Below, piece after piece: positions 6,032-9,851 of a stretch of 64,000 nucleotides of DNA. The stretch comes from an uncultured Gammaproteobacteria bacterium. Its GTDB lineage: Bacteria > Patescibacteriota > Microgenomatia > UBA8517. The position numbers and the translations under genes were made by a program. The stretch lies in NCBI GenBank assembly GCA_964587425.1, contig CAZPLB010000002.1, positions 102,053 through 166,052 on the forward strand, read 5' to 3'. Within the stretch, counting starts at the first letter, position 1. Each line of letters opens with the position of its first letter. The notes below the pieces were generated by a model. That model ran no database searches. It was not told the origin of the DNA and worked only from the letters and a program-made list of their open reading frames with translations.

Positions 6032-7108
6032 CTATTCCAGTTTCAAACTATCAAGTTCAGGAAGTGACTTCCCAACTACTCCTTGAAAATCTCCATACAA
6101 TCCGTGCGTGTGATCAATCACTTTCCGTATCTCCTTCTCCTGTCTTGCCCACTTGGTATTAAAGTATCTTTTTTCTTTTTCTATATCATCCTGTAACCCT
6201 GAAAATATATCTATAATCCCTTCCACCCTGTTGCGAAATTCTGTACCAGTTATATATTGGTAAAGAATTGTCATTTTTTCATCTTTACCTTCACTTGATT
6301 TTCTTTCATGGTATAAACTGACTAAATTAAAACGCAAACTCCATGCAAGCGGTAAGAAATTCTTCAAGTTACAAATCCACACACCATCTCGGTATGTAAA
6401 ACTATCAATTCCATCAGGCATATGGACGCTCACCAAGACAAGGAGATCAGCTTTTGCCTGTCTTCCATCTTCTTTGAGTTTTGCAATCCATCCATCGGTC
6501 CACTTTGCATTCTTACTTTCCCAAAGAATAACTCCAGTTGACCTCCCCAATTTATCAACAACGATCTGAGTAAGATCAGCTCCACGAACACCTTTCTTAA
6601 CCTCACTAATCTTATCCATTGGAAATTCAGTCTTTAATTTTGTTTCAAGTTCAAGTTCAAGAGACTCACCCTGTGTTTGCTGCGATCCCTGTTGCATCTT
6701 AGTCTTCAAAATTTCAACCTGGGAAAGCGCATCAGCAAGTTTTTTATCCTTCTCCAAATCTTTCAGTTGATGTTCCTCGAGAGCTTTCTTTCTGGTCTCA
6801 ACTTTAATTTTTTCTTCTTCATCAAGAAGCTTCTTCTTCATCTCAATTTCACGCTCCTCATCCTTCTCACGAAGTTTTCGCACCTCCCCCAATAGTTCAT
6901 CAATTTGATCAGTTAATTTCTTACTTCTCTCACGTTCTGCCTCTAAATCCTTACCAGCCTTTTTAGAAAGTTCAATTTTCAAGTTTTCAATTTCCTCTTT
7001 ATGCTTCTCACCTAAATCAGCCGCAACCTTCTCTTGAAGTTCATGAGCAAAAGCCTCAGTCAGTTCAAAATCTTTACTACAATGTGGACACTTAATAGTA
7101 TTTTTCAT
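6032..7108 (-). CDS. DUF2130-like protein: N-terminal zinc ribbon, long coiled coil, C-terminal PD-(D/E)XK-like domain
   Basis: N-terminus IKCPHCSKDFEL. About 150 aa of E/K-rich heptad-like sequence. C-terminus GADLTQIVVD...GVILWESKNAK gives a D...ExK arrangement. It starts 4 nt inside the preceding gene, so it is co-operonic with 7105..7842. Confidence 0.5.
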   Translation of the reverse strand: MKNTIKCPHCSKDFELTEAFAHELQEKVAADLGEKHKEEIENLKIELSKKAGKDLEAERERSKKLTDQIDELLGEVRKLREKDEEREIEMKKKLLDEEEKIKVETRKKALEEHQLKDLEKDKKLADALSQVEILKTKMQQGSQQTQGESLELELETKLKTEFPMDKISEVKKGVRGADLTQIVVDKLGRSTGVILWESKNAKWTDGWIAKLKEDGRQAKADLLVLVSVHMPDGIDSFTYRDGVWICNLKNFLPLAWSLRFNLVSLYHERKSSEGKDEKMTILYQYITGTEFRNRVEGIIDIFSGLQDDIEKEKRYFNTKWARQEKEIRKVIDHTHGLYGDFQGVVGKSLPELDSLKLE

Positions 7109-7842
7109 ACGAGTAAAACTTCTTCTAAATTTTTTAAATCCTTATTTCTAACCTGGATAAGTTTTAAGTCATATTTTTGGTATAACTTAATTTTCTCATC
7201 TTTGCGAATCAAATACTTGTCGTCATTCATCCCCCAATACTCTATATATATTCCAGCTTTTGAACTCGAACTTGGTATATAAAAATCGCAAATAACTACT
7301 TCATTTATTGGCACTTGTTGTTCATATACATGGACTATTTTGTGATCAAAAAGCCAATCATCAATCAAAACTTCAGCATAACTTCTCACAAAATGCCCAT
7401 CTTTAGTTTTATTCTGTGGTGGGTTTGATTTTAGGTATTTCTGATCTGCCGAAGAAAGCCTTTCCTTAGATTTAAACTTTGAAATTAGTTTATCAAACTG
7501 TATAGAGTTTACTTTTGCTTTCGGGAAACCCCTTTTACCATCAAAAAATATGATTCCATCAATTTCCGGTTTCGACAGTGGCCTATACTTTTCTTCCCTT
7601 TTTACTCTAACTTGCCATGGATAAGCACCACCCCAAGCATCCGGTTTTATATCCTTTGCCGAATGCGATATCGCTTCAAAGACACCATGCAAAATTCCAT
7701 CACTGTAATCATATAAAAACAATATATCTCCAGTACTCACATCTTTTACTTGAGAAGTATATCTCTCAGTTCCACCAAATATATTATCTCGTAGACACTC
7801 TTTCTTTGTATATCTTGAACACAAGAATATATATACCGACAT
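7105..7842 (-). CDS. PUA-like (EVE/DCD-type) reader domain fused to a Vsr/DUF559-type endonuclease
   Basis: N-terminal IFLCSRYTKKECLRDNIFGG ... ILFLYDYSDGILHGVFEAIS ... AWGGAYPWQVRVK matches the DCD/EVE (PUA-fold) pattern. C-terminal SYAEVLIDDWLFDHKIVHVYEQQVPINEVVICDFYIPSSSSKAGIYIEYWG...LIQVRNKDL matches the DUF559/Vsr-like restriction-endonuclease-fold signature. Confidence 0.55.
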   Translation of the reverse strand: MSVYIFLCSRYTKKECLRDNIFGGTERYTSQVKDVSTGDILFLYDYSDGILHGVFEAISHSAKDIKPDAWGGAYPWQVRVKREEKYRPLSKPEIDGIIFFDGKRGFPKAKVNSIQFDKLISKFKSKERLSSADQKYLKSNPPQNKTKDGHFVRSYAEVLIDDWLFDHKIVHVYEQQVPINEVVICDFYIPSSSSKAGIYIEYWGMNDDKYLIRKDEKIKLYQKYDLKLIQVRNKDLKNLEEVLLV

Positions 7843-7848
7843 AGCCGT

Positions 7849-8535
7849 TCATTTTACCACTTCAGTTAATCTTTTCTTAGCCACCTCACAATATTTTTCA
7901 TTAATCTCTACCCCAACTCCTTCTCTCTCCAACATCTTGCATACCACCAAAGTTGTTCCACTCCCCATAAAAGGATCAAGAATGAGATCTTCCTCAGTAC
8001 TAAACATCTGTATTAGTCTTCTTGGTATTTCAACAGGGAAAGCTGCAGGGTGCCCTAGTTTCTTTTGACTCTCTCCACTAAACTGCCAAATATTATTCAC
8101 CCATTCTCTGAATTCTGCCTTTACTGGCTTCCACTCACCTTTGTATAAAACAATAATAACTTCAACTGCTTTTGAAAAAGCCATTGAATATTTATTTCGA
8201 ACACTCTGTTTATTCCAAATTATTGTACCTTTGTATCTGAAACCTGCCCTTTTAGCTAACAATGTAATATCAGCGTACAAACTTCTCTTTTCACCCTTTC
8301 CTGTATCAATGGGTACATTAATACAAATCCTTCCATTATCTTTGAGTAATTCAAAACATTTAATAAGCCAGTTCCTACTAAATTCCAAATAATCTTTGTA
8401 ACTTTCATTATCTTTATACACTCCATAATCAATTCCCAAATTGTATGGAGGTGAAGTTATAATTAGATCAACTGAAGAATTTTCAAGTTCTACTTTCAAA
8501 AAATCTTCATTATATATCCTCATATTTTGGGGCAT
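7849..8535 (-). CDS. beta-class amino-DNA methyltransferase (N4-cytosine or N6-adenine), SPPY motif
   Basis: VDLIITSPPYN (motif IV) is followed late by LILDPFMGSGTTLVVC (motif I, FxGxG), which is the beta-class order. I chose the start at MPQNMRIYNEDF (8535) rather than the longer ORF start at 8589. Confidence 0.75.
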   Translation of the reverse strand: MPQNMRIYNEDFLKVELENSSVDLIITSPPYNLGIDYGVYKDNESYKDYLEFSRNWLIKCFELLKDNGRICINVPIDTGKGEKRSLYADITLLAKRAGFRYKGTIIWNKQSVRNKYSMAFSKAVEVIIVLYKGEWKPVKAEFREWVNNIWQFSGESQKKLGHPAAFPVEIPRRLIQMFSTEEDLILDPFMGSGTTLVVCKMLEREGVGVEINEKYCEVAKKRLTEVVK

Positions 8536-8563
8536 TTTACCATTAATCGTGATAAAATAGCGT

Positions 8564-9337
8564 ATGAAAAAGAAACTTGCAGTATTCACGATTATCCCTC
8601 TTCTGATCCTTGGTTTTCTAATTTACAAAAACCAAAAAACTAGCGCCACAAGAACTCTTGGCCAAGAAAATGTTACCAGTGAAATGGAGACCACACCAAA
8701 TGCAGTCTCTTTTACACTAAGCGACCAAGAAATATCAGTCTCCCTTTGGAAGGCAAATCCATGGAATCTAAAGTTAATTCCAAACTTCATCAAAAAACAA
8801 GGATCAAAAGAATTTGGGATAACAAGTTCCTGTAAATATCTTGCAAACGCAGGGTTTTACTCCAAAGAAAACAATCCTATTGGCCTTTTCATAACAAATG
8901 GGGAAACTATTGGTAAATGGCAGGAAAATAATCTCCTCGATGGAATACTCACCGTAAACGAATTGATGACACCAAGAATTACAAGAGTAGTTCCAAGAGA
9001 CTCATTAAATATTGCAGTTCAAACTGGACCGATAATAAAAGAAAATGGTTCATTCATTACTCTTAAAATAATGAATGACAGTTTAGACAGACGATCTGTA
9101 GCAGGTATTACTGGAGAAAATGAATTATATTTTCTGAGTTTTTATGAACCCAATTCAAATTACTCAGGTCCCTTACTTGCAGATCTTCCAACTGCGCTAA
9201 AAACGTTTGAGGAAAAAACTGGAATAGTGTTTGCAGATGCAATTAATCTTGATGGCGGTTCTGCATCAGTTTTCAAAAACAATAATACAAGCTTGGAAGA
9301 GATTACCCCTGTCGGAGCATTCTTTTGCCAACTCTAA
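8564..9337 (+). CDS. phosphodiester glycosidase family protein (NAGPA-like, DUF2233-type), membrane-anchored
   Basis: N-terminal TM. Motifs NAGFYSKENNPIGLFITNGE, ITGENELYFLSF and ADAINLDGGSASV match the family (NLDGGGS). Confidence 0.55.
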   Translation: MKKKLAVFTIIPLLILGFLIYKNQKTSATRTLGQENVTSEMETTPNAVSFTLSDQEISVSLWKANPWNLKLIPNFIKKQGSKEFGITSSCKYLANAGFYSKENNPIGLFITNGETIGKWQENNLLDGILTVNELMTPRITRVVPRDSLNIAVQTGPIIKENGSFITLKIMNDSLDRRSVAGITGENELYFLSFYEPNSNYSGPLLADLPTALKTFEEKTGIVFADAINLDGGSASVFKNNNTSLEEITPVGAFFCQL

Positions 9338-9851
9338 CGCTAGCTACATCCCGCTCTATAACTCCCTCTAAAACTGCATCAGGATTATCCATAACTTTGT
9401 CATGGGGCCAAAAGCCAACACTAACTAAAACATTTTTTACAAAACTTAGTCTTAATTCTTTGAAACCCTCACCATTCTTTAATCCCTCCAGTGCATCTTC
9501 CATGATTTCAAATAATTCCACATGTTTTTCTCCATCCCTTGTTACTCTCCCTAGTACTTCACAAAAATAATATGCCAAACTTACTTTCTTGAGATCTTTT
9601 CTTACTGCATCATATGAATCAATAACATGAACCTCAGTCAAAATATCAAGACTCTCCCCCTTCACAGCAGAAAACTTAATGTGATTAAAAATTTCTATTC
9701 CACCACGCTTCCGGCTAGTTACCTTCCTTACTCCCTTTGCCATATAGCTAATCTTCCCATGATCTTTCGTAAAAAGAATGAGTATTCGGTCAGCCTCACC
9801 ATATTTTTTGCGGGCTAAAATAAAACCCTCTGAAGAATACGTTTTGTGCAC
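9303..9851 (-). CDS. recO: DNA repair protein RecO (short form)
   Basis: N-terminal OB-fold signature SEGFILARKKYGEADRILILFTKDHGKISYMAKGVRK. 182 aa, typical of a reduced genome. Confidence 0.8.
   Translation of the reverse strand: MHKTYSSEGFILARKKYGEADRILILFTKDHGKISYMAKGVRKVTSRKRGGIEIFNHIKFSAVKGESLDILTEVHVIDSYDAVRKDLKKVSLAYYFCEVLGRVTRDGEKHVELFEIMEDALEGLKNGEGFKELRLSFVKNVLVSVGFWPHDKVMDNPDAVLEGVIERDVASVRVGKRMLRQG

What the first reader, a model, noticed from the sequence alone, without database searches (positions are those of the whole stretch)
7105..8535. PUA-like (EVE/DCD) reader domain fused to a Vsr/DUF559 endonuclease, directly downstream of an SPPY amino-methyltransferase
The sequence shows a 245-aa protein with two recognisable halves. 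The N-terminal half matches the DCD/EVE PUA-fold pattern (FLCSRYTKKECLRDNIFGG ... AWGGAYPWQVRVK). The C-terminal half matches the Vsr/DUF559 nuclease signature (ICDFYIPSSSSKAGIYIEYWG). EVE/PUA-like domains are established readers of modified bases and are typically fused to nucleases in modification-dependent (type IV) restriction enzymes. Here the fusion instead sits in operon with a beta-class amino-MTase (TSPPYN, which is N4C/N6A-type). By inference this is either an R-M pair whose REase uses a PUA-like domain for recognition, or a dcm-vsr-like modify-and-repair couple built from non-canonical parts. Neither arrangement is a described system type as far as I know.
Basis: partly seen in the sequence, partly recalled or inferred. 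Interest (0 to 1): 0.75.

Follow-up and report, generated by a model that had tools for sequence, protein, structure and literature searches.

The report
Solitary DCD-reader nuclease in defence hotspot
The gene does fuse a modified-base "reader" domain to a Vsr-like DNA-cutting domain, but it is most likely a stand-alone restriction enzyme against modified foreign DNA that landed in a variable defence slot beside a resident methyltransferase, not that methyltransferase's partner.

Summary

About 70 clusters (50% identity) share the DCD-nuclease architecture, across bacteria and archaea. In nine other, independent loci no DNA methyltransferase is adjacent.

The methyltransferase is a resident gene, orthologous (60-70% identity) in related Patescibacteria and held in conserved synteny: DUF4012-RecO-NAGPA-MTase...DUF2130. 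The slot between MTase and DUF2130 is variable. It holds the DCD-nuclease here. Elsewhere it holds an unrelated EVE-nuclease, DpnI-like plus GmrSD-like genes, a type I R-M system, or an m5C-MTase/Vsr/PDDEXK_5 set. In one relative it is empty.

Best reading: a single-chain, modification-dependent (type IV-like) restriction endonuclease carried as cargo in a defence hot spot. DCD-PD-(D/E)xK fusions were already predicted in this role (Bell et al. 2020). It is a new, uncharacterised member of a known kind.

The parts
7105..7842 (-). DCD-nuclease gene (245 aa plus stop), the finding proper
   Evidence: ORF. Homologues align over the full length from the ATG at 7842.
7549..7833 (-). DCD (PUA-like) reader domain, residues 4-98
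7108..7422 (-). Vsr-like PD-(D/E)xK nuclease module, residues about 141-245. D148, E157, D161, H171, D186, E201, G204 and Y210 are invariant; K217 is nearly invariant.
7849..8538 (-). Resident beta-class SPPY amino-methyltransferase, the conserved upstream boundary of the variable slot. Not a dedicated partner of the nuclease.
   Evidence: PF01555 E=1.7e-51. Orthologues at 60-70% identity in conserved synteny with different neighbours.
6032..7108 (-). DUF2130 protein (zinc ribbon, coiled coil, C-terminal PD-(D/E)xK), the conserved downstream boundary of the slot
   Evidence: PF09903 E=1.4e-56. Orthologues at 66-75% identity in L129, L211 and L215. Listed as a PD-(D/E)xK family in PMC3424549.
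8564..9337 (+). NAGPA-like gene, conserved flank diverging from the MTase
   Evidence: PF09992. Syntenic in L127-L130, L211, L214 and L215.
9303..9851 (-). RecO, conserved flank
   Evidence: Pfam RecO_N/RecO_C annotation on the L127 copy, which is 100% identical to the window ORF. Orthologues at 57-87% identity in the other loci.

Best explanation
The 245-aa protein is a single-chain, modification-dependent (type IV-like) restriction endonuclease. The N-terminal DCD domain is a PUA-superfamily beta-barrel related to EVE and YTH. It is inferred to flip out and read a modified base in incoming DNA. The C-terminal Vsr-like PD-(D/E)xK module (candidate catalytic residues E157, D186, E201, with K217/H171/Y210) is inferred to cut nearby. 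It may work as a dimer needing two marks, as in MspJI, VcaM4I and AbaSI; that too is inferred. The gene is cargo in a fast-turnover defence slot. The slot is bounded by a lineage-conserved, probably orphan, SPPY methyltransferase and a conserved DUF2130 gene in Saccharimonadia-like Patescibacteria. The host methyltransferase's mark is predicted to be m4C from the SPPY motif, but this is not proven. That mark is presumably one the DCD pocket does not accept. What is shown: the domain identities, the fold, conservation of the acidic residues, the lack of MTase linkage in the family, and the variability of the slot. What is inferred: DNA as the substrate, dependence on modification, and the identity of the modification.
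For: Domains and fold. The family is real and widespread. A profile search gave 7179 hits at E<=1e-3. About 70 representatives at 50% identity span both domains, and about 17 of these are roughly 400-aa forms with two DCD stretches. Members occur in Deltaproteobacteria, Nitrospirae, Gottesmanbacteria, Thaumarchaeota and Thermoplasmata. It is normally a solitary gene. The neighbours of P0002-P0005, L012, L072, L090, L107 and L109 are unrelated housekeeping or assorted genes, with no DNA MTase among them. The nuclease module is a swappable effector. In 93 genome proteins it is fused to KilAC (35), WH_AprA (13), DCD (6) or HTH_45 (5) N-terminal domains. The KilAC form is PADLOC defence candidate PDC-S69. 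The hot spot shows in six orthologous loci with different cargo between the MTase and DUF2130: this DCD-nuclease; an EVE-PD-(D/E)xK protein (PDC-S02) plus YaaC; nothing; DpnI-like plus GmrSD_N/NsnA; a type I R-M system; and PDDEXK_5 plus an m5C MTase plus Vsr. Flank orthology is supported by DUF4012 at 67-92%, RecO at 57-87%, MTase at 60-70% and DUF2130 at 66-75% identity. One MTase orthologue sits after ftsZ with no defence genes nearby. Precedent: PUA-sensor/nuclease fusions are MDREs and fewer than 6% lie near DNA MTases (PMC6765204). DCD-PD-(D/E)xK fusions were predicted to restrict modified DNA (PMC7641849).
Against: No DCD domain has a demonstrated ligand, and in eukaryotes an RNA ligand is suspected. 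Nuclease activity is not tested, and Vsr's catalytic His is not obviously conserved. Two of the five occupied slots next to orthologous MTases carry unrelated PUA-reader nucleases, tightly packed at 5-6 nt spacing. That could hint at a link to the MTase rather than coincidence. The three genes (MTase, DCD-nuclease, DUF2130) have no detectable terminator between them and are probably co-transcribed. The gene shows no compositional sign of recent transfer.
Confidence: 0.65

Rival explanations
1. A genuine R-M pair. The SPPY MTase protects host DNA and the DCD-nuclease cuts unmethylated DNA, using the PUA-like domain to recognise sequence or the unmodified state.
For: The spacing is tight at 6 nt, both genes are on the same strand, and no terminator lies between them. 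The closest relative has another reader-nuclease in the same position after the orthologous MTase.
Against: The nuclease family lives without any adjacent MTase in nine other loci. The wider surveys found 0 of 120 and 0 of 80. The MTase persists with no nuclease beside it (L129, L212) or with unrelated systems. A classical REase without its MTase would be lethal.
Confidence: 0.06
2. A dcm-vsr-like modify-and-repair couple. The Vsr-like domain nicks at lesions created by the MTase's product, guided by DCD binding to the methylated base.
For: The C-domain has a Vsr-clade fold, and the gene overlaps or abuts its neighbours as vsr does with dcm.
Against: The partner is an amino-MTase (PF01555), not a C5-MTase. 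From established chemistry, m4C and m6A do not deaminate to a T:G mismatch. The adjacency is not conserved. A canonical m5C-MTase/Vsr (PF03852) pair occupies the same slot in L215 and looks quite different. The Pfam Vsr model does not hit this protein.
Confidence: 0.03
3. An abortive-infection nuclease triggered by host-methylome-derived nucleotides. The DCD domain binds methylated mononucleotides or oligonucleotides released when a phage degrades the MTase-marked chromosome, and this switches on the nuclease.
For: There is a precedent. A PUA-Calcineurin-HAD system senses Dam-derived m6-dAMP (PMC12871103). Two unrelated PUA-reader nucleases sit directly after orthologous MTases. The N-domain is closest in fold to YTH/UPF0310 small-ligand pockets.
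Against: Most family members have no MTase nearby, although a trans-acting MTase elsewhere in those genomes is not excluded. There is no evidence for oligomerisation or ligand gating. The slot also holds ordinary R-M cargo.
Confidence: 0.07
4. An RNA-directed enzyme. The DCD domain reads a modified RNA base and the Vsr/RAP-like domain acts as an endoribonuclease, as a toxin or in RNA quality control.
Against: The sister fusions of the same nuclease module carry dsDNA-binding KilAC and winged-helix domains. The best C-domain matches are DNA endonucleases. The genomic company is DNA restriction genes.
Confidence: 0.08
5. A free-standing selfish homing endonuclease that inserted between two conserved genes.
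For: The best C-domain structural match is the homing endonuclease I-Bth0305I. The insertion is clean and single-gene relative to L129. Family members occur in scattered, unrelated contexts.
Against: There is no intron, intein or phage context, and no PHROG match. The nuclease module is flagged as a defence candidate. A reader domain for modified bases is not typical of homing enzymes.
Confidence: 0.04

Closest known systems
Prokaryotic DCD-PD-(D/E)xK fusions (Bell, Wolf & Koonin 2020, BMC Biol 18:159)
   Same: Same sensor family (Pfam PF10539) fused to a PD-(D/E)xK-superfamily nuclease. These were predicted to restrict modified DNA.
   Different: That paper reports DCD as rare and mostly archaeal or hyperthermophilic. 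It stresses DCD-MTase fusions followed by a nuclease. Here the nuclease is specifically a Vsr-clade module, the host is a Patescibacterium, and the family is larger, at about 70 clusters at 50% identity. There is no experimental characterisation in either case.
PvuRts1I/AbaSI family (5hmC/glc-5hmC-dependent REases)
   Different: The domain order is reversed, with the nuclease N-terminal. No sequence similarity was detected.
VcaM4I/TspA15I EVE-HNH MDREs
   Different: The nuclease is HNH rather than Vsr-like PD-(D/E)xK. The EVE specificity (5mC/5hmC) is known, whereas the DCD specificity is unknown.
PADLOC PDC-S69 (KilAC-nuclease defence candidate, e.g. Vibrio 288-aa proteins)
   Same: Homologous C-terminal nuclease module. 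The window protein scores E=2.4e-33 over profile positions 151-277 of 289. The Vibrio protein matches the full length at E=1.8e-130.
   Different: The N-terminal domain is KilAC rather than DCD, so the window protein is only a partial match.
Vsr / DUF559 / I-Bth0305I clade of PD-(D/E)xK nucleases (clade 58 of Steczkiewicz et al. 2012)
   Same: The same fold. The top C-domain structural matches are exactly the three reference structures of that clade: 3r3p, 3hrl and 1cw0. The motif layout is comparable: S-x-x-E helix, D-F strand, E-x-x-G strand.
   Different: No sequence-level match to PF03852 or PF04480. There is no mismatch-repair context, and the His of the Vsr/DUF559 motif is not evident.

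Membership tests
DCD domain (Pfam PF10539, PUA-like superfamily) | Match to the family HMM above the gathering score | tested here: met
   88.5 bits against a cutoff of 27.8, E=4e-25, residues 4-98
DCD domain (Pfam PF10539, PUA-like superfamily) | PUA/EVE/YTH-type beta-barrel fold | tested here: met
DCD domain (Pfam PF10539, PUA-like superfamily) | [quoted passage not shown] | not testable with these tools
   No ligand is known for any DCD domain. Binding assays are needed.
Vsr / DUF559 endonucleases (PF03852 / PF04480) | Sequence match to the family models | tested here: not met
   No Pfam hit at E<=1. A profile against PDB sequences finds no Vsr or DUF559 chain. hhalign against a Vsr and a DUF559-like sequence is not significant.
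Vsr / DUF559 endonucleases (PF03852 / PF04480) | Vsr-like variant of the restriction-endonuclease fold | tested here: met
Vsr / DUF559 endonucleases (PF03852 / PF04480) | Conserved catalytic residues (helix Glu, strand Asp, E-x-D-G-x-x-H or F-x-H-G-x-x-x-H) | tested here: inconclusive
   E157, D186 and E201-x-x-G204 are invariant in 51 members, and Y210 and K217 are conserved. No residue-level superposition was available, and the motif His is not seen.
Type IV / modification-dependent REase of the PUA-sensor + nuclease class | A single polypeptide with a PUA-superfamily sensor and a nuclease domain | tested here: met
Type IV / modification-dependent REase of the PUA-sensor + nuclease class | No obligatory cognate methyltransferase | tested here: met
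   Nine other loci have no DNA MTase. Surveys found 0 of 120 and 0 of 80.
Type IV / modification-dependent REase of the PUA-sensor + nuclease class | Cleavage that depends on DNA modification | not testable with these tools
   Biochemistry or phage assays are required.
Type II R-M pair | Conserved linkage and co-inheritance of MTase and REase | tested here: not met
   The MTase is orthologous across six loci with different neighbours or none. The nuclease family is found without an MTase.
Dcm-Vsr very-short-patch repair couple | A C5-cytosine MTase partner and conserved adjacency | tested here: not met
   The partner is an N6_N4 amino-MTase. Adjacency is not conserved. A canonical DNA_methylase+Vsr pair is seen separately in L215.
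PADLOC PDC-S69 | Full-length match to the profile (KilAC N-domain plus nuclease) | tested here: not met
   Only profile positions 151-277 of 289 match, i.e. the nuclease module. The Vibrio protein matches positions 1-289.

The most novel reading that the evidence does not exclude
This would be a nuclease-effector analogue of the recently described PUA-Cal-HAD m6-dAMP sensor. It would explain why two unrelated PUA-reader nucleases converge on the same position after orthologous MTases.
Probability: 0.07. Interest if true: 0.8.

Novelty: new member of a known kind. Interest (0 to 1): 0.3.

Why it matters
If the main reading holds, this is an untested sensor-nuclease combination (DCD plus a Vsr-like module) within the well-known class of modification-dependent restriction enzymes. 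It could be a source of a new epigenetic-mapping reagent. It would also give the first chance to learn which modified base a DCD domain reads, and that bears on the unexplained role of DCD proteins in plant cell death. The better-supported by-product is ecological. It documents a compact defence hot spot in reduced Patescibacteria genomes, bounded by a conserved orphan methyltransferase and DUF2130. Neither point overturns current understanding.

Tried and rejected
- A word-indexed homologue search with the N-domain alone returned one eukaryotic hit only. This is a sensitivity limit and says nothing about rarity.
- The search for related loci with the 51- and 18-sequence family alignments failed because no stretch was conserved enough. 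A hand-made degenerate DNA pattern for DGHxVxSxxExxIDxWL was used instead.
It returned only distant MTases (at most 49% identity), so it served only as a negative control.
- The exact-sequence look-up of the 239-aa P0001, the protein identical to the window's, found no record.
- The afdb50 fold library was unavailable.
- The profile-versus-PDB search and hhalign against Vsr/DUF559-like sequences gave no significant link.
- The promoter/terminator scan gave fewer hits than shuffled controls and was uninformative.
- GC, GC3 and trinucleotide composition of the gene lie within the window's background.
- An apparent recurring 80-aa neighbour turned out to be unrelated proteins.
- A check for integron-like repeats around two Vibrio PDC-S69 genes found none.
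Full report
**1. What is in the sequence**

The region holds a run of tightly packed genes on the minus strand:
- An SPPY methyltransferase at 7849..8589. Its likely start is the ATG at 8538.
- A 245-aa ORF at 7105..7842.
- A 358-aa DUF2130 protein at 6032..7108.
- A small-molecule-type SAM methyltransferase and a cupin.

The 245-aa ORF starts 6 nt after the MTase stop codon. Its own stop overlaps the DUF2130 start by 4 nt.

Pfam results:
- Residues 4-98 of the 245-aa protein match Dev_Cell_Death (PF10539) at E=4e-25.
- The upstream gene matches N6_N4_Mtase (PF01555) at E=1.7e-51.
- The downstream gene matches DUF2130 at E=1.4e-56.
- No Pfam model covers the C-terminal half of the 245-aa protein.

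PADLOC matches residues 118-243 to the defence-candidate model PDC-S69 at E=2.4e-33. It gives weaker matches to other PD-(D/E)xK models.

**2. Structure**

N-domain matches:

C-domain matches:

3r3p, 3hrl and 1cw0 are exactly the structures that define the Vsr/DUF559 clade in the PD-(D/E)xK census of Steczkiewicz et al. 2012. Foldseek confirms the YTH/EVE-like N-domain.

At the sequence level the Vsr/DUF559 link could not be shown. There is no Pfam hit. A family profile against PDB sequences finds nothing relevant. hhalign against a Vsr and a DUF559-like sequence is not significant.

Across 51 family members D148, E157, D161, H171, D186, E201, G204 and Y210 are invariant, and K217 is nearly invariant. 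This fits an active PD-(D/E)xK-type site with a helix Glu, a strand Asp and an E-x-x-G strand.

**3. The family**

The word-indexed search found only four full-length relatives, at 42-45% identity. It also found many roughly 300-aa proteins sharing only the nuclease module, fused to KilAC.

An exhaustive profile search found 7179 hits at E<=1e-3. About 70 of the top 150 representatives (50%-identity clusters) span both domains. About 17 of those are roughly 400-aa forms with two DCD stretches (confirmed for L012).

A degenerate-pattern scan of GTDB genomes gave 120 loci carrying the nuclease module. Five more of these are DCD fusions. They come from a deltaproteobacterium, a Nitrospirae MAG, a Gottesmanbacterium, a thaumarchaeon and a Thermoplasmata archaeon. 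Among 93 proteins from these loci, the N-terminal partner was KilAC in 35, WH_AprA in 13, DCD in 6 and HTH_45 in 5. The nuclease is thus a swappable effector behind DNA-binding or sensor domains. The Vibrio KilAC form is PDC-S69 itself.

**4. Is the methyltransferase a partner?**

Nine other, independent DCD-nuclease loci have heterogeneous neighbours and no DNA methyltransferase or DUF2130. The loci are P0002, P0003, P0004, P0005, L012, L072, L090, L107 and L109. The neighbours include GST, aldo-keto reductase, a UvrD-like helicase, PolA, GIY-YIG, radical SAM, AsnC and HhH-GPD genes.

None of the 120 nuclease-module loci has a beta-class MTase in its 8-kb block. None of 80 SPPY-MTase metagenome loci has a DCD domain or this nuclease.

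The MTase itself has close orthologues at 60-70% identity. They lie in conserved synteny: DUF4012 - RecO - NAGPA(opposite strand) - MTase. What follows the MTase varies:

| Locus | Cargo after the MTase |
|---|---|
| Window / L127 | DCD-nuclease, then DUF2130 |
| L128 (closest relative; DUF4012 92% identical) | Unrelated 284-aa EVE + YhcG/NucS-type PD-(D/E)xK protein (PADLOC PDC-S02), then YaaC |
| L129 / L130 | Nothing; the MTase is 10 nt from DUF2130 |
| L211 | DpnI-like methyl-directed REase and a GmrSD_N/NsnA protein, then DUF2130 |
| L214 | Type I R-M system |
| L215 | PDDEXK_5 + C5-MTase + canonical Vsr, then DUF2130 |
| L212 | The MTase follows ftsZ, with no defence genes |

Flank identities fit vertical inheritance of the boundaries: DUF4012 67-92%, RecO 57-87%, NAGPA 50-67%, DUF2130 66-75%.

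The MTase is therefore a resident, probably orphan, gene. The DCD-nuclease is cargo in a variable defence slot.

**5. Mechanism**

The best-supported reading is a single-chain, modification-dependent (type IV-like) restriction endonuclease. The DCD pocket reads a modified base in foreign DNA and the Vsr-like module cuts.

This matches the established class of PUA-sensor/nuclease MDREs, which are rarely adjacent to DNA MTases (fewer than 6%; Lutz et al. 2019). It also matches the prediction for prokaryotic DCD-PD-(D/E)xK fusions in Bell et al. 2020. AbaSI/PvuRts1I provide a characterised precedent for a Vsr-like cleavage domain joined to a base-flipping reader.

The modification that is read, the substrate (DNA or RNA) and the oligomeric state are inferred, not shown. 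The MTase's SPPY motif suggests m4C under the usual motif-IV rule. That is background knowledge and was not tested here; automated source names call the MTase adenine-specific.

**6. Rivals**

- A classical R-M pair and a dcm-vsr-like couple are both disfavoured. The pairing is not conserved, the MTase is of the amino-MTase class, and a canonical C5-MTase/Vsr pair exists in the same slot of a relative.
- An RNA-directed role cannot be excluded, given the eukaryotic DCD/YTH context and the RAP-domain similarity.
- A selfish homing endonuclease cannot be excluded either, given the I-Bth0305I similarity and the clean single-gene insertion.
They might sense host-methylome-derived nucleotides as an infection alarm. 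A PUA-Cal-HAD system does this with m6-dAMP (PMC12871103). I put this at about 7%.

**7. Novelty and score**

The architecture class is known and was predicted in the literature. This DCD + Vsr-like combination is uncharacterised, and its nuclease module is absent from Pfam. I classify it as a new member of a known kind, with interest 0.3. The hot-spot structure in Patescibacteria is a useful side observation.

Noticed in passing
window 6032-8538; loci L127-L130, L211, L214, L215: The interval between a conserved SPPY MTase and a conserved DUF2130 gene is a variable defence hot spot in related Patescibacteria. Six orthologous loci give six different contents, including empty, type I R-M, DpnI-like plus GmrSD-like, and C5-MTase plus Vsr plus PDDEXK_5.
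   Followed up: yes
window 6032-7108 (-): The DUF2130 protein has an N-terminal CxxC...H zinc-ribbon-like motif, a long coiled coil and a C-terminal D...ESK PD-(D/E)xK motif. It directly abuts the MTase orthologue in L129/L130 (10-nt spacer). An ancestral MTase-DUF2130 functional pair is conceivable but was not tested.
   Followed up: partly
L212 5001-5702: An orthologue of the MTase (63% identity) lies immediately downstream of ftsA-ftsZ and upstream of ileS, with no defence genes around. This fits a housekeeping or orphan (possibly regulatory) methyltransferase.
   Followed up: no
L012 1204-2427; P0044, P0048, P0053 etc.: A longer form of the family (about 380-435 aa) carries two tandem DCD domains ahead of the same nuclease module.
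   Followed up: partly
L004 1208-1480; L005 1238-1480; L006 1192-1434: Next to the closest DCD-nuclease homologue (P0002) is an 80-aa ORF with a DUF559-like motif (DIFIP...FIEVNGLQH), followed by a UvrD-like helicase. It may be a truncated second Vsr-like nuclease.
   Followed up: no
L009, L014, L016, L017, L022, L033 and about 25 other Vibrio loci: A 288-aa KilAC-nuclease (PADLOC PDC-S69) is present in many Vibrio species, often on chromosome 2. A quick search for integron-type direct repeats in two of these loci found none.
   Followed up: partly
L211 5647-5853 (-) and L214 5707-5913 (-): A conserved 68-aa ORF on the opposite strand, with no family match, overlaps the 3' end of the MTase in two relatives. 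It sits at the upstream edge of the variable slot.
   Followed up: no
window 8526-8564: The MTase and the divergent NAGPA-like gene start only about 26-38 nt apart. If the GTG at 8589 were used as the MTase start, the two genes would overlap. This leaves almost no room for two conventional promoters.
   Followed up: no
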